Below are positions 17,921 to 24,423 of a stretch of DNA of 24,423 nucleotides, in pieces. Under the pieces are notes generated by a model. That model was given only the letters and a program-made list of their open reading frames with translations, was not told the DNA's origin and ran no database searches. Source of the stretch: a virus (taxonomy: Duplodnaviria; Heunggongvirae; Uroviricota; Caudoviricetes); IMG/VR virus record IMGVR_UViG_2681813316_000024, positions 1-24,423 of that record. One strand, written 5' to 3'. A program made the translations under genes and the position numbers. How positions within the stretch are numbered: position 1 is the first letter of the stretch; each line of letters starts with the position of its first letter.

Positions 17921-18198
17921 CGGAAAGCCACGGATGGTTAGTTGCAGTCTTTTTTATATAAATCTCTGTCCATAAATCCTCCTGTTTACCAAAACTATAT
18001 CAAACTTTAACGCAATGCTGCGCAACTTAAGTGACTGTCAGGTTGATAACAGACACTCTTTTTTGCATGATTCCTTTAGACCATCACAATTGATGAAGAA
18101 TCATGAAAAGAAGAACTCTTCTAAAGTCTTTGCTCGGCCTGACGTCACTCTTACCAGTTAAGTTTGCAGCATCTCAAAACCTGCAAGGTAAAAGTATA

Positions 18199-20436
18199 AT
18201 GTCAGACATTACACCCAATGTTGTAGTGAGTATGCCTTCGCAACTCTTCACTATGGCTCGTTCTTTTAAAGCCGTAGCTAATGGAAAGATTTATATCGGG
18301 AAAATTGACACTGACCCGGTAAACACTGAAAACCAGATTCAGGTTTATGTAGAGAACGAAGATGGTTCTCACGTTCCTGTTTCGCAACCAATCATCATTA
18401 ACGCTGCTGGATATCCGGTATATAACGGACAGATTGCCAAATTCGTAACCGTGCAAGGCCATTCTATGGCTGTTTATGATGCGTATGGTGCGCAGCAGTT
18501 CTATTTTTCGAATGTGCTGAAGTATGACCCTGACCAACTCAGGCAAGATCTTGCATCTCAAGGAGGTGTTAATCTGGTAAACGGAGCTATCTCACAGGAA
18601 GATCTTGTTTTGCAGTCGATCACAAAAATTCCAAGTTATGATAATTCTAACGTAGTCCAGGCGTGGCGCGATAGTGTTGCGACCTACGGGTATGTTTACT
18701 TCTCTAATCATTCAAAAAATCAGATGGTGTACACCGTACCGTCTACAGCTGCTAACGCTTCTTTCCTTGCGAACAGTAAAGTAATCATTGATAAAAATGT
18801 CACCCTGAGATTCGACAGTGATCTGTACTCACTGTTTAAATCGTTGCAGTACGAGGGGGAGGGTACGTTTGAATTTACGCACCTGAACTTTAAAGCAACC
18901 GGTGGAGAAGTGGATTATCTGGCTAAGCAGGCCATCCTCAACCGAAACCCTATTCGCATGAAGCGAGTGGAATGGTCAGATTGTAAAGTTTATTCCATAA
19001 ATGGTGACACGTTCTTCTATGAAGGTGAAGTCACCATATCCTCAGATAGCGCAGCTATCTTCCCCTTAACTACTGACCGTACAACAGGCCTGTTCGCACC
19101 AATAGATATTGGAGAGCATATTTCTGCACATATTCGTATGGAATCTCAGGCCGCCTCAGAAGTTGGGATTGTTCTGCGATGCTCTGGTGGTTGGATGATG
19201 TTCTATGGGGCACCAGGTGCTACACAGTGGTCTTATAGACAGAAACCAATTGGTGGTCCAGTAGCAGAAGGAACTCCATTCCCGCTGCCAGGAGGTTTAC
19301 TGTCGTACGCCCCGGGCAAAGCAACCGTTGGCGTATCACTGCAAGGTAAAAACTGGGCGCAGATAACGATGAATGGCGTTGGGATACGTTTGCCCTTTGA
19401 TACTGCTGATGTAGGGGATGTATACGAAGTTGGGTTTGTTGCACTGACCACGGCATCTGGAGGTTCTGCGCGTGTAACTGGATTATGCAGCTACACCTCT
19501 GATAATGGCGTGCACGGTAAGCCTCCACTTAATATCCTTATCCACGGTGATAGTACAGCTGAGGATTTCATTTCCGCGTTCAGCTCGTACATTCCGCAAT
19601 TAATGGATGGAGCGAACGGCCACCGTTCACATAGCATTGTAAACAAGGCAGTTGCCGGACAGACAATGAGGCAACAGTTAGATCTCCTGAAGGCTCAGGG
19701 GCCGGGTGATGCTTACATCGTTATTATGGTTGCCGGAACTAACGAAGGGCAGGCAAACCAAAACGGCGATTATATGGCGTCATTGATAGATGAGTTTGTC
19801 TTATATTGCAATGGCCTTGGTCGTATCCCTGTTTGGGTTGAGCCGTGGATGTGGTATAGCCAGTCATTTATTGGAGGGGCTGGCCAGCCATCTTCTAACT
19901 ACGACGGTGTCGCAGAGTTGCGAGAAGCTGGTAAACGCCAGATGATGAAATATGGCAATAACGTCATTTGTGTAACAACAACTCACCAGCTCCCGGCCCC
20001 ATATCCAGAGTATTTCAATACGCAATACGACCCACTTCTGCGTGATGACATTCACCAAAGCCAGTTAGGGTATCGTCTGTATGCGGAAATTATCTGCTCT
20101 GCCATTATCGACTGGTGGTCGCGTGTTGATTACACGCCAAGAGCAGCTGTTCAATGGTGGGCTGGAACAAACGTAACAGTACAGGCACCGTCAAGTTTAA
20201 CTGCCAATTCAATTAATATTAAACTGGCAGCCACTTCATTTGCGAATGGTAATACTGTTCTAACGCTGCCAAGGTGGTGTAGACCAACAGTAACAAAAAA
20301 TGTCCCTGTACCGTTCACTGCTGATGGAATATCTTACGGTATGGCGATGGCAACAATAAGCGCATCAACCGGGTCGATAACAATTAATGGATCTACTACA
20401 GCCTCACCAATATTTTACATTGATGCTTCCTGGTAG
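18199..20436 (+). CDS. Tailspike: P22-type head-binding domain fused to a non-glycanase receptor module containing an SGNH/GDSL esterase domain
   Basis: From ATG 18199 the product is 745 aa. Residues 1-113 ([11 protein letters not shown]...[21 protein letters not shown]...[13 protein letters not shown]...NVLKYDPDQ) match the P22 gp9 N-terminal domain up to the known YDPDQ hinge. The rest is unrelated to the P22, Sf6 or HK620 beta-helix as I remember them. SGNH blocks are I: LIHGDS (G450-D451-S452), II: [11 protein letters not shown]: AGTNEG, V: DDIH (D616..H619). The track ORF start at 18103 adds 32 codons that I consider untranslated. Confidence 0.9.
19517..20120 (+). other. SGNH hydrolase (acetyl-esterase-like) domain inside the tailspike
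   Basis: All four catalytic or oxyanion blocks occur in the canonical order and spacing: GDS at nt 19546-19554, G of block II at about 19650, GTNE at about 19735-19746, DxxH at nt 20044-20055. Domain borders are approximate. Confidence 0.75.
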
Positions 20437-20465
20437 AAAAAGGCCGCAATGCGGCCATCTTTTAC
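20437..20465. terminator. Bidirectional intrinsic terminator shared by the convergent tailspike and SGNH genes
   Basis: GGCCGC-AAT-GCGGCC (20442-20456) is flanked by A5 on the left and ATCTTTT on the right. It lies between the tailspike stop (20434-20436) and the stop of the minus-strand gene (20462-20464). Confidence 0.8.
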
Positions 20466-21157
20466 TTCACATGTTTATTAATCTCTCTCATCCAAACGGC
20501 ATAGCCATTTTTATTTAAATGCACTCCATCATCAAAGTACAATTCAGATTTTTTATCAGATAAAAAATCTGCAGGAACTTCTATTATATTGCAGTTAACT
20601 ATGCGACTACATGTTCTATCAATAATAGAGTTAATCATGCTTATTCTTGAATTGACATGGTCTACGTCTTTTCTTGCCCCGCTTATGATTGGCAAAACTT
20701 TTAATGCATAAATATTATCAACCTTTGATACACTCTTAAGCAGTTTGTCATAATCATCAAATATTTCCTCTTCGGTTTTCGCACCCATCGCATCGTTAAC
20801 TCCACCTTCAATTATCGCAGCTTTATATCCAGACGCCCCATAATTTTCTGATAGAGTTAGGATCTGATGTATAGAGTATCCTCCGACCCCCATATTAACA
20901 TATTTAAAGTTTAACCCATATGGTGACATTCCTTGTATGAGCGAGTCGCCATAAACCACAATGTCGCCGTCAGCTTGATTAGCATTCATTTTTTTAAAAT
21001 CTAGCATCACAGCCTGAAAGTCGTTAACTTTTTTTTGAGATAAATAATTTCTAATTGAACGAACAGACAATACTATAATAACTATTGCAATCAGAATAAA
21101 CAGCATTGCCAAATATTTATTTGCTTGAGACTTTCTATTTGTTTGTTTTGACTTCAT
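20462..21157 (-). CDS. Membrane-anchored SGNH/GDSL hydrolase-fold protein (231 aa), standalone
   Basis: SD AAGGA lies 7-8 nt upstream of the ATG. It has a single N-terminal TM helix (YLAMLFILIAIVIIVLSV). SGNH blocks are I: VVYGDSLIQG, II: NMGVGGYS, III: EGGVNDA, V: DDGVHLN. The gene is AT-rich. The layout resembles the TM-linker-SGNH C-terminal half of OafA/OafB-type O-antigen acetyltransferases. Confidence 0.8.
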   Translation of the reverse strand: MKSKQTNRKSQANKYLAMLFILIAIVIIVLSVRSIRNYLSQKKVNDFQAVMLDFKKMNANQADGDIVVYGDSLIQGMSPYGLNFKYVNMGVGGYSIHQILTLSENYGASGYKAAIIEGGVNDAMGAKTEEEIFDDYDKLLKSVSKVDNIYALKVLPIISGARKDVDHVNSRISMINSIIDRTCSRIVNCNIIEVPADFLSDKKSELYFDDGVHLNKNGYAVWMREINKHVK

Positions 21158-21241
21158 TGCATTTTCCTTTTAATAAGGTTTAAGGTTAAAAATATATTTA
21201 CGCTTCAAATCAACGAATTGAGAAAATTATTCAGCCAACCA

Positions 21242-21520
21242 CTAACTAGACTTGCAATCTAATCTTATATATGATCTGAGTAAGAGTGTAAAAATCCGCT
21301 TAATCCTTCTTAAGTAAAAATCGGAAAAAGAAAATTTACCGCTATTTAAATTTTTAAAAATAATACTTGAAATTAAAAGGCTAGATATTATGAAAAATAA
21401 ATCAAACCCATTGAACTCTCCAGAAAATGCGCTTGGGAAAGCGTGAAACATCACAACAGCGACTGCTCTTAAACCATCTATACCAGCTCTATACTTTATC
21501 ATTTTTATTGTCCAATTCAT
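21242..21520 (-). pseudogene. Remnant of the N-terminus of an AT3 (acyltransferase_3) gene
   Basis: The 92-aa ORF contains MIKYRAGIDGLRAVAVVMFHAF...DLFFIIS...FYLRRIKRIF. These are the first three AT3 signatures (R/H of TM1, FF..S, RR..R). It then stops after about 90 aa, where an intact AT3 domain needs about 330-370 aa. It has no SD, and the SG(F/Y)LI motif is degenerate (SSLLIS). Confidence 0.55.
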
Positions 21521-21805
21521 CTACAGTGAAAGAGCAAAGAAAAACAATGCAATATATCTCATGTGACTACCCCTAAAATAAATTTAATGATAATAACATC
21601 ATGAGGATAAATTTAGAAGTGGGAAGATCGGAAATGCTCATTGAGCAGCAGAAAAAATATCACTGACTCTGTATACACATACAGTATTTTTTGTCTGTTA
21701 TTGATCATTGGATACTTGAGCCTAGCGTAAAAGTAATATGAATGATACAGTATGCTTATATAATTGATTTTTGCTCTCGGTGTAAGTTCGGATTGTATTA
21801 TATAA

Positions 21806-21837
21806 CCAGAAAATATCCCCAGAACTAAGCTGGGGAT
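21806..21837 (-). terminator. Intrinsic terminator after the AT3 acyltransferase gene
   Basis: On the minus strand, ATCCCCAG-CTTAGTT-CTGGGGAT (8-bp perfect stem, 21815-21837) is followed by ATTTTCT. It starts 13 nt after the stop codon at 21850. Confidence 0.6.
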
Positions 21838-21849
21838 TCATGTCATATG

Positions 21850-22890
21850 TCAGCTTGCTAGTGCGATCTTCCTAAGCCTGTGACCTATATTTATAGATGG
21901 TTTTTCAATTACCTTATAAGAAATAGTTGCTAGTGCGATCGTAGCTAATAGGTATAAAACAAAAATAATAAAATTAAAATCTGTGTCCATGTCTATACTG
22001 ACAGATACAATCTCTAAAAAGAATGGGTGAATCAAGTATACAGAGTAACTTATCGATCCCAGGAAAACCAATAATCCTACATTCAATTTTACCCGTGTAG
22101 TGAGCAATAGCGTCAATACTATGCCTGTAAGATAGCTAGCAATATAGGAGGAAGCATTTTCCCCATGCCCATAGTCTTTATTGTAGGACATTAAGCAAAT
22201 CGGAGCAATCGCCACTAGGAATGTTATTAAAAATACAATGCACATATTTCTTTCTGATCTCGATGCAATCCCAATGCTCACTGAACGCCATAAGCTACCA
22301 AAGAACATTAATGACATAGCTAGCGGTATTGCCACAGGAACTTTTTTATCAAGAACGAATCTCACGTATGAGAAAGCAAGAGCGGTTGCAATAAGTCCTA
22401 TAGAAATTAAAAATAAAGAAACCTTACTCTTTAATAAATTTACTTTGAAAAGAAACGCACAGGAAGCATAGAAGAACAACTCAATTATTAGCGTCCAATA
22501 AACACCAAACATATCTGGAGATCTCAGTAAAGATTGAAGCATGGTAATATTAGACAACAGAGTTCTTATATCAAGTGGTCTATGAGTTACAAACAAAAAA
22601 GTAAAGGCCGCCAGAAATACTGAAAACCAGTAAGCGGGATATAGTCTAAAAAACCTTGATATAATGAACCCGGATATCGCTCTTTTCCCTTCCTTTAGGC
22701 TGTAAGGTATTACCATGCCACTTAACACAAAGAAGCAAACAACACCAACCTGACCAAAGTTAACATGCTTAAATAAAAAACTGTTATGCAATGGTGTTCG
22801 CTCTATGAAATGTGCACATGCAACCATCAGGGCTGCAAGTCCACGCAAAGAGTCTAGGAATTCTAGACGATTTCCATTTCTTATAGACAT
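21850..22890 (-). CDS. Integral-membrane acyltransferase, AT3 family (Oac-like O-antigen/polysaccharide O-acetyltransferase)
   Basis: 346 aa, polytopic and hydrophobic. AT3 signatures are RLEFLDSLRGLAALMVACAHF (R...H), VVCFFVLSG, SRFFRLYPAYW, YWTLIIELFFY and SISYSVYLIHPF. Its size and position (between tailspike and int) match Sf6 oac. About 30% G+C by eye. Confidence 0.85.
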   Translation of the reverse strand: MSIRNGNRLEFLDSLRGLAALMVACAHFIERTPLHNSFLFKHVNFGQVGVVCFFVLSGMVIPYSLKEGKRAISGFIISRFFRLYPAYWFSVFLAAFTFLFVTHRPLDIRTLLSNITMLQSLLRSPDMFGVYWTLIIELFFYASCAFLFKVNLLKSKVSLFLISIGLIATALAFSYVRFVLDKKVPVAIPLAMSLMFFGSLWRSVSIGIASRSERNMCIVFLITFLVAIAPICLMSYNKDYGHGENASSYIASYLTGIVLTLLLTTRVKLNVGLLVFLGSISYSVYLIHPFFLEIVSVSIDMDTDFNFIIFVLYLLATIALATISYKVIEKPSINIGHRLRKIALAS

Positions 22891-22925
22891 TAAAGATACC
22901 TAAGTTAAGTGTAGTAATAGGATTA

Positions 22926-22953
22926 ATTTTAACAGCATGATTCTGTTGATCAA
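22926..22953 (-). promoter_or_regulatory. Candidate sigma70 promoter for the AT3 gene
   Basis: On the minus strand, TTGATC (22953-22948), a 16-nt spacer and TAAAAT (22931-22926) lie about 35 nt upstream of ATG 22890. This is prediction from sequence only. Confidence 0.35.
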
Positions 22954-23204
22954 TGGATAAGCAGCGTGTTTTGAAGTTGATCTGATTTTTACTATGATTA
23001 TATTGTGTTCTCGCACAGTATTTTATCGTAAGTGCACTATGGGCTTCTATCTCCAGCAGCAGAACTAGTTGAAGATAGTGTGTCAATCGACAAGAGCCTT
23101 ATTGCTCCAATCTCAGTCACGTACATGATGATATCCGTCAGGTCATTATCAACGAAGAGTGTTATGGTTAGTTTGATTATTGTGCGGTGATGTGAGAAAA
23201 ACTT

Positions 23205-23267: not shown

Positions 23268-24423
23268 TCACTTCACCTTTTCATCAAGCCAATCCGCCCA
23301 CCACTGCATCATTTCTCTGCGCTTATCGAGATACTGAGCGTGGTTGTAAATCCCGCGCACAGATCCGCCGTTGGCATGTGCCAGTTGCACTTCAATAGCG
23401 TCAGCAGGCCATTCGTGCTCGTTCATAATCGTGCTGAATTCATGCCTGAATCCGTGACCGCTTTCCAGACCTTCATAGCCGATTTGTTTGATCACAAGCA
23501 GTACAGCGTTCTGGCAAATTGGCTTCTTCTTATCGTTGCGCCCGGCAAAAACAAACTCTGACACTGGTTTAGTGATTGAGCTTAGCGTAGTGAGAAGTTC
23601 AATCACCTGGTCTGACATAGGAACCACATGAATTTTTCGACCCTTCATCACACTGGCGTCGATGGTGATAATCCTGTTTTCAAAATCGACGTTCTTCCAT
23701 AGCATGGAGCGAAGCTCTTTCGTTCTTAGGGCTGTGTAGCGCAAAACTTTAGTCGCAATGAGCGATACGATGCTCCCTGAAAATGTTGCCAGTGCTTTGT
23801 TGAATGCAGGGATCTGGTCTGCAGGAAGAAACGGGAAGTTCTTCTTGCGGTATCCCTTCATGGCGTCAGCAAGGTCAGGTGCCGGGTTATATTTAGCCCT
23901 ACCAGTGACAATAGCGTAACGGAAAACCTCGCCGCATCTTCTGCGGGCTTTATTTGCTCGCTCCATTGCACCGCGATCTTCAAATCTGCGGATTACTTCC
24001 AGTAGTTGCATCGGCTCAATATCCTGAATTTCAAGACCGCCGATGATGGGTAAAATGTCGTCATCAAACATTTTTGCAAGTTCATTTGCATAGCCCTGAC
24101 CAGACTTGCTTCTTGTGCTCGTACCATTCCTTGTAAATGGCGCTAAAGGAATTGTTGTTAGACGAAGCCTTTTTCGCCTTTACCGGATCGATGCCAACCG
24201 AGATGTCTTTCCTCGCAGTCCATGCTTTATCCCTTGCCTCTTGCAAAGTCATAAGCGGATATTTTCCGACGGTCAGGATTTTCTCCTTACCGTCAATCTT
24301 GTAGCGAAGCTGCCATACCTTTTTCCCTGACACAGGGACATAAAGGTACAGGCCATTACCATCGAGTAGGCGGTATGGTTTTTCTTTCGGCTTTGCTGCT
24401 TCAATCTGCTTAACGGTGAGCAT
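23268..24423 (-). pseudogene. int: Tyrosine integrase, P4 / IntS / Sf6 (argW-type) family, interrupted by a frameshift; start codon at the window edge
   Basis: Two adjacent ORFs (24423-24082 and 24071-23268) together give about 385 aa. The N-terminal DUF4102-type arm domain is MLTVKQIEAAKPKEKPYRLLDGNGLYLYV...KVWQLRYK. The catalytic residues sit in ...YTALRTKELRS..., ...HGFRHEFST... and ...HANGGSVRGIYNHAQY. The sequence looks nearly identical to E. coli K-12 IntS (CPS-53) as I remember it. The frames switch at the GGG run (plus-strand CCC, 24094-24096). Confidence 0.85.

What the first reader, a model, noticed from the sequence alone, without database searches (positions are those of the whole stretch)
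18538..22890. Esterase tailspike next to an acetyltransferase conversion island: a candidate phage-encoded acetyl 'eraser/writer' pair acting on the receptor polysaccharide
**What the sequence shows.** The virion adhesin carries an SGNH esterase domain with all four catalytic blocks in place of a glycanase beta-helix. The next genes are convergent, share one bidirectional terminator with it, and lie on a visibly AT-rich acquired segment. They encode an intact AT3 O-acyltransferase and a periplasm-facing membrane-anchored SGNH protein.

**What is known.**
- Sf6 Oac and other AT3 enzymes O-acetylate O-antigen to block superinfection.
- Esterase tailspikes, such as G7C gp63.1 and those of the Vi-specific phages, bind acetylated polysaccharide and deacetylate it.

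**Inference.** This phage may both read and erase an acetyl mark when it infects, and write or rewrite acetylation when it is lysogenic. The conversion could move the acetyl to another position. Alternatively, the anchored SGNH could strip the receptor acetyl in the periplasm. I do not recall this combination being described in a P22-like phage. It is my best candidate for a new receptor-modification and exclusion logic.
Basis: partly seen in the sequence, partly recalled or inferred. Interest (0 to 1): 0.75.

Follow-up and report, generated by a model that had tools for sequence, protein, structure and literature searches.

The report
Esterase tailspike with acetyl-editing island
A P22-like prophage of O88 E. 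coli carries a tailspike that is an acetyl-esterase rather than a sugar-cutting enzyme, and the gene that reliably travels with such tailspikes is a small membrane-anchored esterase-like protein of unknown function, not the acetyltransferase next to it, which probably edits the acetyl mark on the receptor in lysogens.

Summary
The tailspike (18199-20436) has a P22 head-binding domain followed by a beta-sandwich, an SGNH esterase and a second beta-sandwich, with no beta-helix. GDS/G/GxN/DxxH are invariant in 35 homologs. A 15-bp hairpin (20442-20456) separates it from a convergent, AT-rich island (34% GC).

New findings:
- **Host range.** All 12 complete E. coli genomes with this tailspike module are O88. 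Only 30 of 5426 genomes are O88 (p=6e-29). The O88 cluster encodes two acetyltransferases.
- **AT3 is not specific.** A convergent AT3 follows 8 of 57 non-esterase P22-like tailspike clusters. The 346-aa gene is a mobile cassette.
- **The small SGNH is the specific partner.** The 231-aa anchored SGNH (phrog_14008, function unknown) follows a tailspike in 10 of 13 lineages. Eight of those tailspikes are esterases, of two unrelated architectures. None of the 57 control clusters has it.
- **Variable architecture.** It occurs alone, after an AT3-only gene, after a complete OafA-like gene, or fused to AT3.
- **Deletion remnant.** A 92-aa ORF (21242-21520) is what remains of an OafA-like gene.

Best reading (about 0.45): the small SGNH deacetylates the O88 receptor in the periplasm of lysogens. 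Main rival (0.3): it is the split transferase partner of an AT3. I found no published description. New variant of a known kind.

The parts
18199..20436 (+). Tailspike CDS, 745 aa. An in-frame upstream start at 18103 is probably not used.
   Evidence: ORF list. RefSeq annotates the 745-aa form in PigCaeca_1. Head_binding scores 1.6e-66.
18199..18540 (+). P22-type head-binding (virion adaptor) domain, aa 1-114.
   Evidence: PF09008. PDB matches to the Sf6, P22 and HK620 tailspike N-termini. This part is 88-98% identical at nucleotide level to many Lederbergvirus phages.
18955..19497 (+). Beta-sandwich (jelly-roll, CBM-like) domain of the receptor module, aa ~253-433.
   Evidence: AF2 strands 140-320 of the 632-aa fragment. 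Foldseek matches to the CE2 N-terminal domain, GH16 and galectin folds.
19528..20118 (+). SGNH esterase domain of the tailspike, aa ~444-640. Catalytic residues are S452, G487, N515, D616 and H619.
20173..20433 (+). C-terminal beta-sandwich of the tailspike, aa ~659-744.
   Evidence: AF2 strands 546-631 of the fragment, pLDDT above 90.
20442..20456 (.). GC-rich hairpin GGCCGCAATGCGGCC, a bidirectional terminator shared by the tailspike and the small SGNH gene.
   Evidence: Scored on both strands. An equivalent hairpin sits between the tailspike and the SGNH gene in L002, L006, L007, L017, L022, L025 and L029.
20462..21157 (-). Small membrane-anchored SGNH protein, 231 aa. Motifs are GDS 70-72, GVGG 90-93, GGVND 118-122 and DGVH 210-213.
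   Evidence: PF13472 scores 9e-14 and phrog_14008 ('unknown function') scores 3.7e-19. AF2 pLDDT is 88, with an N-terminal helix at 3-61 followed by the SGNH fold. The catalytic residues are invariant in 26 homologs.
21242..21520 (-). 92-aa ORF. It is the 5' remnant of a 660-aa OafA-like AT3-SGNH gene that has a 1.67-kb internal deletion. The junction is at about 21291-21296.
   Evidence: 74% aa identity to residues 1-78 of L025:702-2684. blastn aligns window 21510-21291 with L025 693-922, and window 21296-20404 with L025 2593-3490. The R-X10-H motif is shortened to R-X7-H; this is read directly from the alignment.
21669..21684 (.). Intact LexA (SOS) box CTGT-N8-ACAG. It is left over from a divergent humD/acetyl-gene promoter region.
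   Evidence: Pattern search and alignment. The same box lies next to humD/umuD in 8 related loci.
21815..21837 (-). Intrinsic terminator of the 346-aa AT3 gene.
   Evidence: Terminator scan. It lies inside the conserved cassette 22979-21815.
21850..22890 (-). AT3-only O-acyltransferase, 346 aa. It is part of a mobile cassette spanning about 21815-22979.
   Evidence: PF01757 scores 2.3e-30 and phrog_3333 'O-acetyltransferase' scores 5e-56. Motifs are given. The cassette is 82-83% identical at nucleotide level in L137 and L138.
22930..23018 (-). Promoter-region homolog upstream of the AT3 gene, with a degenerate LexA box at 23003-23018.
   Evidence: Window 23006-22930 matches L025 419-495 at 79%. 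Sequence shown.

Best explanation
**What the window is.** It is the right end of a P22-like (Lederbergvirus) prophage integrated at argW in an O88 E. coli.

**The tailspike.** It keeps the P22 head-binding adaptor. Its receptor module is a carbohydrate-esterase assembly of beta-sandwich, SGNH domain and beta-sandwich. The module is specific for O88 hosts. I infer that it binds the O-acetylated O88 O-antigen and removes an acetyl group, in the manner of G7C gp63.1, rather than cutting the chain.

**The island.** Across a shared hairpin terminator lies a mosaic conversion island with three elements:
- a small inner-membrane-anchored, periplasm-facing SGNH protein (phrog_14008);
- the deletion remnant of an OafA-like AT3-SGNH gene;
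- a separately promoted and terminated mobile AT3-only O-acetyltransferase cassette.

**The conserved partner.** The small SGNH, not the AT3, is the conserved and specific partner of esterase tailspikes.

**Proposed mechanism (inferred).** In the lysogen the small SGNH acts on Und-PP-linked or nascent O-antigen at the periplasmic face. It removes the acetyl group that the tailspike reads, so the lysogen surface no longer offers the receptor. That would give superinfection exclusion and prevent trapping of progeny. The AT3 enzymes that come and go upstream would add acetyl at other positions. The combined effect is that the acetyl mark is edited or relocated.

**Shown versus inferred.**
- Shown: domain identities, conservation of catalytic residues, O88 restriction, the pattern of gene association, and the mosaic history of the island.
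- Inferred: substrate, direction of the reaction and the exclusion phenotype.
For: **Esterase tailspike.** Catalytic blocks are invariant. The AF2 model is confident. The fold matches carbohydrate acetylesterases.

**O88 restriction.**
- All 12 genomes carrying the module are among the 30 O88 genomes of 5426. Hypergeometric p=6e-29.
- Published serotypes agree: O88:H31, O88:H8 and O88:H16.
- The O88 gene cluster has two acetyltransferase genes.

**Specific association of the small SGNH.**
- In 10 of 13 lineages it lies convergent, directly after a tailspike gene. Eight of those tailspikes are SGNH esterases, of two unrelated architectures.
- None of 57 non-esterase P22-like tailspike clusters has it.
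- In complete E. coli genomes it is present in 6 genomes. All are O88 and all have the esterase tailspike next to it.

**Autonomous function.**
- It is intact, with conserved catalytic residues, in at least four lineages with no AT3 within the fetched flanks (5-8 kb): L006/L023, L007, L008 and L009.
- It also follows complete OafA-like enzymes, which already have their own SGNH domain.

**Hydrolase-like character.** It has canonical hydrolase-type blocks and matches PF13472, not PF19040. Its nearest folds are acetylhydrolases and sialate O-acetylesterases.

**Inheritance with the tailspike module.**
- Identity of the tailspike module and of the SGNH fall together across lineages.
- L017 and L025 have 100% identical tailspike modules and keep the SGNH, while the AT3 part differs.

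**Precedent for the logic.**
- G7C requires O-acetylated O-antigen.
[quoted passage not shown] That this phage is epsilon15, and that its lysogens lose O-acetylation, is from my own knowledge.
- A 2026 preprint title reports an esterase domain in the epsilon15 tailspike.
Against: **Fusion to AT3.**
- Orthologs of the small SGNH are fused to an AT3 domain in a 595-aa protein, 79% identical over the SGNH part.
- L029 carries the split version of the same pair: the AT3 is 60% identical and the gap is 11 bp.
- Every characterised AT3-SGNH fusion is an acetyltransferase in which the SGNH domain does the transfer.

**AT3 is usually present.** Eight of 13 lineages have an AT3 directly upstream on the same strand.

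**Structure does not decide.** The OatA transferase domain is also among the fold matches.

**Association is not obligatory.** Three O88 prophages have the tailspike without any island.

**Gaps in the evidence.**
- One tailspike type that is followed by the SGNH has no recognisable esterase domain.
- I could not read the O88 structure paper, so native O-acetylation of O88 rests on the two cluster genes only.
- There are no expression data. In this window the gene upstream of the SGNH is a deletion remnant.
Confidence: 0.45

Rival explanations
1. **Split acetyltransferase.** The small SGNH is the periplasmic transferase partner of an AT3. Together they would be an OafA/OafB-like enzyme encoded as two polypeptides. 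The AT3 carries acetyl from cytoplasmic acetyl-CoA across the membrane. The anchored SGNH puts it on the O88 O-antigen at a position that blocks the tailspike. The island would then be a pure 'writer', and the only 'eraser' would be the virion esterase.
For: - L029 (AT3 377 aa, an 11-bp gap with an RBS, then SGNH 222 aa) is the split ortholog of the fused 595-aa AT3-SGNH of SRY149 and L017. The AT3 halves are 60% identical and the SGNH halves 52-56%.
- The fused protein has the AT3, TM11 and SGNH layout of known O-acetyltransferases.
- Four different AT3 types sit directly upstream of the SGNH in different lineages.
- The AT3-346 cassette lies upstream of an SGNH gene in two of its three contexts: the window and L138.
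- The OatA transferase domain is among the fold matches.
- The AT3 review names a possible 'missing SGNH partner' of AT3-only enzymes as an open question.
Against: - At least four lineages keep an intact small SGNH with no AT3 nearby.
- In two lineages the upstream gene is a complete AT3-SGNH (PF19040) that needs no second SGNH.
- In this window the AT3 is 0.7 kb away, ends in its own terminator, and is only 26-28% identical to the AT3 that is fused or paired with the SGNH elsewhere.
- None of the eight AT3 genes behind non-esterase tailspike clusters comes with this SGNH.
Confidence: 0.3
2. **Position only, no functional link.** The region between the tailspike and int/attP is the standard moron slot of P22-like phages. 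The island is a decaying mosaic. Its presence next to an esterase tailspike reflects physical linkage and descent, not function.
For: - A convergent AT3 follows 14% of non-esterase tailspike clusters.
- The island contains a deletion remnant and a lost humD.
- A30, GPEC1240 and PEC301 have the same tailspike and no island.
- The integrase is frameshifted in this window.
- Several of the counted loci are related by descent.
Against: - The small SGNH accompanies two unrelated esterase tailspike families, at SGNH identities of only 40-47% between them. That indicates long-standing, separate associations.
- The receptor module plus SGNH occurs on P22, Tail_spike_N and T7-type adaptors, so it moves between phage types as a unit.
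- Its catalytic residues are invariant.
- With 100% identical tailspike modules the AT3 part differs while the SGNH is kept.
Confidence: 0.12
3. **Other substrate.** The small SGNH acts on something other than the tailspike's receptor. Candidates are peptidoglycan O-acetyl groups (Ape1-like), ECA, colanic acid or a lipid. Alternatively it scavenges nutrients, like the prophage NanS-p sialate esterases.
For: - Fold matches include sialate O-acetylesterases and PAF acetylhydrolases.
- The wider family has 1337 representatives at E<1e-10, mostly stand-alone proteins of 220-260 aa from unknown contexts.
- The Aeromonas homolog is not next to a tailspike.
Against: - The tight, repeated placement behind tailspike genes, and the co-divergence with the receptor module, are hard to explain for an unrelated substrate.
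- It is membrane-anchored, not released.
- It is restricted to O88 hosts among complete E. coli genomes.
Confidence: 0.08

Closest known systems
G7C gp63.1 esterase tailspike (PDB 4QNL)
   Different: There is no sequence similarity in the catalytic part. The domain order differs: here a beta-sandwich precedes the SGNH domain, as in CE2 esterases. The adaptor is P22 head-binding rather than the N4-like type. This phage is temperate and its hosts are O88. Activity here is untested.
Sf6 Oac, Sf101 Oac1b and other AT3-only O-antigen acetyltransferases of P22-like phages
   Same: The gene is AT3-only and about 330-350 aa. It lies between tailspike and int and is convergent with the tailspike. The motifs R-X10-H, FFxxSG and RxxR are present. 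It matches phrog_3333 'O-acetyltransferase'.
   Different: Its closest relatives are uncharacterised AT3-only proteins of Pantoea, Pseudomonas and Yersinia. Here it sits in an island with an anchored SGNH and behind an esterase tailspike. Its substrate is unknown.
OafA/OafB (and BTP1 GtrC) fused AT3-SGNH O-antigen acetyltransferases
   Same: Relatives of this island encode complete AT3-SGNH proteins of 611, 639 and 660 aa (PF01757 + PF19040). The window keeps the first ~80 codons of one. A 595-aa fusion of AT3 with the small SGNH also exists.
   Different: In the window nothing is fused. The small SGNH matches PF13472 and not the PF19040 domain typical of OafA/OafB. It also occurs alone.
Salmonella phage epsilon15: tailspike with an esterase domain, and conversion that abolishes O-acetylation
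   Same: A temperate phage whose tailspike carries an esterase domain (title and abstract only). [quoted passage not shown] That this phage is epsilon15, and that its lysogens lose the O-acetyl group, is from my own knowledge. It is the same 'read acetyl, then remove it in the lysogen' logic that I propose.
   Different: The epsilon15 tailspike also cleaves the chain. Loss of acetyl is attributed to inhibitors of the host AT3, not to a periplasmic esterase. The proteins are unrelated.
PatA/PatB/Ape1 peptidoglycan O-acetylation cluster
   Same: One locus encodes a membrane acyl carrier, an SGNH transferase and an SGNH esterase acting on the same polymer. This is a precedent for a writer and an eraser side by side, and for stand-alone periplasmic SGNH partners (own knowledge for Ape1).
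   Different: The carrier is an MBOAT rather than an AT3. The substrate is peptidoglycan. The cluster is chromosomal and not phage-linked.
SGNH-domain receptor-binding proteins of Klebsiella prophages (PMC13123978)
   Same: SGNH RBPs are among the commonest enzymatic RBPs of temperate phages. Two were shown to be active esterases. The paper notes that 5-30% of prophages encode acetyltransferases and that some RBPs have adjacent SGNH proteins.
   Different: That work concerns capsule specificity in Klebsiella. It does not describe a conserved anchored SGNH partner or any pairing rule.

Membership tests
SGNH/GDSL hydrolase superfamily (tailspike domain) | Blocks I (GDS), II (G), III (GxN) and V (DxxH) with the Ser-Asp-His triad | tested here: met
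   S452, G487, N515, D616 and H619 are present. They are invariant in 35 homologs.
SGNH/GDSL hydrolase superfamily (tailspike domain) | Three-layer alpha/beta/alpha SGNH fold | tested here: met
G7C gp63.1-type esterase tailspike | Sequence homology of the catalytic part to gp63.1 | tested here: not met
G7C gp63.1-type esterase tailspike | Deacetylates the O-antigen without depolymerising it, and the phage needs the acetyl group | not testable with these tools
   Needs purified protein plus NMR or MS on O88 polysaccharide. Only the strict O88 host association is shown.
P22-like (Lederbergvirus) tailspike | N-terminal head-binding domain | tested here: met
   PF09008 scores 1.6e-66. The region is 88-98% identical at nucleotide level to Lederbergvirus phages.
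P22-like (Lederbergvirus) tailspike | Right-handed parallel beta-helix glycanase receptor domain | tested here: not met
   The AF2 secondary structure and domain layout show two beta-sandwiches and an SGNH domain. There are no beta-helix matches.
AT3-only O-antigen acetyltransferase (Oac type) | Full-length PF01757 domain without a fused SGNH | tested here: met
   PF01757 scores 2.3e-30 over profile positions 2-325 of 326 in a 346-aa protein.
AT3-only O-antigen acetyltransferase (Oac type) | Functional motifs R/K-X10-H (TMH1), FFxISG-like, and RxxR (loop 2-3) | tested here: met
   R16-X10-H27, FFVLSG 53-58 and RFFR 79-82 are present. The motifs are as defined in PMC7448272.
AT3-only O-antigen acetyltransferase (Oac type) | O-acetylates the O-antigen in vivo | not testable with these tools
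   Requires LPS analysis of strains with and without the gene.
OafA/OafB fused AT3-SGNH acetyltransferase | AT3, 11th TM helix and SGNH in one polypeptide | tested here: not met
   In the window AT3-346 and the SGNH are separate genes 0.7 kb apart with a terminator between them. Only a 92-aa remnant of a fused gene is left. Relatives do have fusions.
OafA/OafB fused AT3-SGNH acetyltransferase | SGNH domain of the PF19040 type | tested here: not met
   The small SGNH matches PF13472 and PF00657 only.
phrog_14008 (phage protein family, function unknown) | Match to the family profile over nearly its whole length | tested here: met
   E=3.7e-19, residues 29-228 against profile positions 27-231 of 234.
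Lysogenic conversion (O-antigen modification) module of P22-like phages | Located between the tailspike gene and int/attP, transcribed opposite to the late operon, with atypical composition | tested here: met
   Gene order is tailspike, SGNH, AT3, intS, tRNA-Arg (argW). The island is 34% GC.
Lysogenic conversion (O-antigen modification) module of P22-like phages | Alters the O-antigen and blocks adsorption of the same phage | not testable with these tools
   Needs lysogen versus non-lysogen adsorption assays and LPS chemistry.

The most novel reading that the evidence does not exclude
phrog_14008 proteins are a previously unrecognised class of prophage conversion factor. They would be inner-membrane-anchored periplasmic O-antigen deacetylases, or transacetylases that can take the acetyl either from an AT3 or from the native ester. 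They would erase or relocate the acetyl group read by the phage's own esterase tailspike. The gene would travel with the receptor-binding module as one cassette between podo-, sipho- and T7-like temperate phages. As a by-product, the split, fused and stand-alone forms would provide a natural series for testing whether AT3-only enzymes use a separate SGNH partner.
Probability: 0.3. Interest if true: 0.8.

Novelty: new variant of a known kind. Interest (0 to 1): 0.6.

Why it matters
**Background.** Esterase tailspikes are now known to be common in temperate phages, but how their lysogens avoid re-adsorption is not known.

**If the favoured reading is right.** If the small anchored SGNH removes or moves the acetyl mark, it would be a new way of receptor-based superinfection exclusion. 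Known ways add sugar (Gtr), add acetyl (Oac, OafB) or inhibit the host acetyltransferase (epsilon15). This one would be enzymatic erasure in the periplasm.

**Use for annotation.** It would explain a recurring gene of unknown function next to tailspikes. It would also give annotators a rule, namely that tailspike module and partner SGNH predict the receptor chemistry.

**Relevance to AT3 enzymology.** Independently of direction, the series gives a natural experiment for an open question in the AT3 field (PMC9558356): do AT3-only enzymes need a separate SGNH partner? The series is:
- L029, AT3 and SGNH as two genes;
- SRY149 and L017, the fused 595-aa form;
- L025 and L011, an OafA-like gene plus an extra SGNH;
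- L006-L008, the SGNH alone.

**Practical point.** The strict O88 restriction of the tailspike module makes it a candidate O88-specific probe.

Tried and rejected
- **GTDB scan.** A scan of species-representative genomes for the small SGNH found nothing, so I used IMG/VR and exact-protein look-ups instead.
- **Shared origin of the two SGNH domains.** The small SGNH and the tailspike's own SGNH domain share no detectable sequence similarity, so I rejected a common recent origin.
- **Esterase versus transferase from structure.** Foldseek returns both acetylesterases and the OatA transferase domain. This was inconclusive.
- **Type-3 tailspike module (L006/L022/L023).** It gave no Pfam, PHROG, PDB or profile-profile signal.
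- **Phage Hf4s.** This P22-like seroconverting phage of the G7C host turned out to use Gtr glucosylation and a glycosidase-like spike, so it is not a precedent.
- **O88 repeat-unit structure.** I could not read the structure or its acetylation. Only the citation (Torgov et al. 1996) was found. Acetylation is inferred from two acetyltransferase genes in the cluster.
- **SOS control of the SGNH.** I considered that the LexA box might make the SGNH SOS-inducible. In stand-alone loci the box lies about 87 bp upstream of the SGNH start and about 20 bp from the humD start, so it most simply controls humD. This stays an open side note.
- **Upstream tailspike start.** An upstream in-frame start at 18103 gives a signal-like peptide, but RefSeq and homologs start at 18199. 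I treated it as not real.

Full report
**1. What is in the window.**

ORF listing and Pfam give this gene order:
- P22-type ejection proteins;
- a tailspike (18199-20436, +);
- a convergent 231-aa SGNH protein (20462-21157, -);
- a 92-aa AT3-like ORF (21242-21520, -);
- a 346-aa AT3 acyltransferase (21850-22890, -);
- a P4/IntS-type integrase (23268-24423, -).

**2. The tailspike is an esterase-type adhesin.**

- Residues 1-114 are the P22 head-binding domain.
- The remaining 632 residues have 80 homolog clusters. These carry at least four kinds of N-terminal adaptor: PF09008, PF18668, PF03906 and PF12571. The receptor module is therefore exchanged between phage types.
- In an alignment of 35 homologs (30-92% identity) the SGNH blocks are invariant: GDS with S452, G487, GxN with N515, and D616-x-x-H619.
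- AlphaFold (pLDDT 87.4, pTM 0.83) gives a small alpha/beta domain, a beta-sandwich, an SGNH domain and a C-terminal beta-sandwich. There is no beta-helix.
- Foldseek's best matches are CE2 and acetyl-xylan esterases, which have the same arrangement of jelly-roll followed by SGNH.
- There is no sequence-level similarity to gp63.1's catalytic part.
- So it works like gp63.1 on present evidence, but it is not a member of that sequence family.

**3. The receptor is almost certainly the O88 O-antigen.**

- Published serotypes of three independent hosts are O88:H31, O88:H8 and O88:K+:H16.
- The O88 wzx-wzy region occurs in 30 of 5426 complete genomes.
- All 12 genomes with the tailspike module are among those 30. 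The hypergeometric p is 6e-29.
- The O88 cluster in SRY149 encodes two cytoplasmic-type acetyltransferases, besides rfbBAC and an epimerase/dehydratase.
- An O-acetylated O-unit is therefore expected. This is an inference, because I could not read the 1996 structure paper.

**4. The island is a mosaic.**

- The hairpin at 20442-20456 is a terminator on both strands. It recurs in related loci.
- The island is 34% GC against 46-48% in its flanks.
- The 92-aa ORF is 74% identical to the first 78 residues of a 660-aa AT3-SGNH (PF19040) protein. In L025-L028 that protein sits directly upstream of the closest relative of the small SGNH.
- blastn maps a 1.67-kb internal deletion in that gene.
- The AT3-346 gene, with its promoter region and its own terminator (21815-22979), is a cassette. 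It is found at 82-83% nucleotide identity in L138 and L137.
- In SRY149 the orthologous position holds a fused 595-aa AT3-SGNH plus humD.
- The window keeps an intact LexA box (21669-21684), a degenerate one (23003-23018) and a frameshifted humD 3' remnant.

**5. Which neighbour is specific?**

*Control sample.*
- I sampled 80 P22-like loci by their head-binding domain. They form 59 tailspike clusters.
- Of the 57 non-esterase clusters, 8 (14%) have a convergent AT3 right after the tailspike. None has the small SGNH.
- AT3 adjacency is therefore generic. This agrees with the literature on O-antigen modification genes behind P22-like RBPs.

*Contexts of the small SGNH.* It is phrog_14008, 'unknown function'. 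It has 28 close clusters, nearly all 212-245 aa. I examined 13 lineages.
- In 10 it lies convergent, directly after a tailspike.
- Six of those tailspikes carry the window-type module.
- Two carry an unrelated esterase architecture, Tail_spike_N followed by an N-proximal PF13472 domain. These are homologous to PDB 9lna, 9d84 and 9d80.
- Two carry a module of unknown fold.
- One further case is the beta-propeller-like tailspike of phage vB_EcoP-683R2, which is followed by a distant SGNH.

*Further support.*
- In complete E. coli genomes the gene occurs 6 times, always in O88 and always next to the esterase tailspike.
- Tailspike-module identity and SGNH identity fall together across lineages.
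- L017 and L025 have identical tailspike modules and both keep the SGNH, while the AT3 part differs.

*The association is not obligatory.* A30, GPEC1240, PEC301 and several IMG/VR contigs have the tailspike alone.

**6. Architectures around the small SGNH.**

- (a) After an AT3-only gene: L029, with an 11-bp gap, and the window, with a scar.
- (b) After a complete OafA-like AT3-SGNH: L011-13, L024 and L025-28.
- (c) Fused to AT3 as a 595-aa protein: SRY149 and L017-20. L021 is frameshifted.
- (d) Alone, next to humD/umuDC: L006, L007, L008 and L023.

L029's AT3 is 60% identical to the AT3 half of the fusion, and its SGNH is 52-56% identical to the SGNH half. Split and fused forms are therefore orthologous.

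**7. Mechanism.**

The small SGNH has a basic N-terminus and one TM helix. All catalytic blocks are invariant in 26 homologs. Fold matches include acetylhydrolases, sialate O-acetylesterases and the OatA transferase domain. Structure therefore does not decide the direction of the reaction.

For a deacetylase role:
- stand-alone conservation in at least four lineages;
- co-occurrence with complete acetyltransferases that need no second SGNH;
- restriction to phages whose adhesin reads acetyl esters;
- hydrolase-type motifs (PF13472, not PF19040).

For a transferase role:
- the AT3 fusion and its split ortholog;
- the frequent presence of an AT3 upstream.

My estimates are about 0.45 for a periplasmic receptor deacetylase, possibly acting as a transacetylase, and about 0.30 for a split OafA-like transferase. 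The rest goes to 'no functional link' or another substrate. Both leading models predict that the island edits O88 acetylation and blocks re-adsorption.

G7C's dependence on the O-acetyl group is documented. The epsilon15 case is a further precedent for removing acetyl from the receptor in lysogens, but it rests partly on my own knowledge and on a preprint title.

**8. Novelty.**

- Esterase tailspikes and AT3 conversion genes are each well known.
- Full-text searches found no description of a conserved anchored SGNH partner of esterase tailspikes, or of a prophage periplasmic O-antigen deacetylase.
- The Klebsiella prophage study notes SGNH RBPs, adjacent SGNH proteins and prophage acetyltransferases, but no pairing rule.
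- The AT3 review lists 'a missing SGNH partner' for AT3-only enzymes as an open question.
- I class this as a new variant of a known kind, with moderate to high interest. It depends on experiments that are simple to do.

Noticed in passing
window 21242-21520 (-): The 92-aa ORF is the 5' remnant of a 660-aa OafA-like AT3-SGNH gene with a 1.67-kb internal deletion (junction ~21291-21296). Its R-X10-H motif is shortened to R-X7-H.
   Followed up: yes
window 21669-21684 and 23003-23018; L002, L006, L007, L011, L017, L023, L025, L028: There is an intact LexA box (CTGTATGTGTATACAG) and a degenerate second copy. In eight related loci the same box lies in the short divergent region between humD/umuD and the acetyl-editing genes. 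It may control only humD. Whether the SGNH or AT3 genes respond to SOS is unknown.
   Followed up: partly
window ~23130-23190: A frameshifted 3' remnant of a humD (UmuD-like) gene. SRY149 and L025-L028 have the intact gene at the corresponding place.
   Followed up: partly
window 23268-24423 (-), around 24096: The integrase is split into two ORFs by a 2-bp deletion relative to the 99.5% identical PigCaeca_1 prophage. This is either a pseudogene (a locked-in prophage) or a sequencing error.
   Followed up: partly
L017 vs L025 (tailspike L017:2360-4630, L025:3458-5743): The two receptor modules are 100% identical. One locus has a fused 595-aa AT3-SGNH. The other has a 660-aa OafA-like gene plus a separate small SGNH (87% identical SGNH). 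The AT3 part turns over quickly beside a fixed tailspike and SGNH.
   Followed up: partly
L138:690-6048: An island with the AT3-346 cassette, a signal-peptide SGNH (227 aa), a convergent AT3-SGNH (639 aa), a Tat-signal SGNH with a C-terminal extension (378 aa) and a humD remnant. That is five acetyl-handling genes in 5.4 kb.
   Followed up: partly
L006:5693-7909, L023:2434-4650, L022:3650-6151: A third tailspike receptor module occurs on P22 and T7-type adaptors. It has no GDS motif and no Pfam, PHROG or PDB match, yet it is also followed by the small SGNH. Its fold and activity are unknown.
   Followed up: partly
NZ_CP076267.1 (38.7-kb record of strain NADC1036) and its chromosome NZ_CP076264.1: The same esterase receptor module (95% nucleotide identity) is present both on the chromosome and on a separate 38.7-kb replicon-sized record. 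That record may be an excised or plasmid-like phage.
   Followed up: no
window 18103-18198 (+): An in-frame upstream extension of the tailspike ORF encodes a signal- or Tat-like peptide ([24 protein letters not shown]). RefSeq and homologs start at 18199, so it is probably not translated.
   Followed up: no
L052 (phage vB_EcoP-683R2, ON470594.1) 2127-2663: An isolated Lederbergvirus has a distant (28% identical) 178-aa SGNH esterase convergent behind a non-SGNH tailspike. It is followed by a DUF1796 papain-like protein and int.
   Followed up: partly
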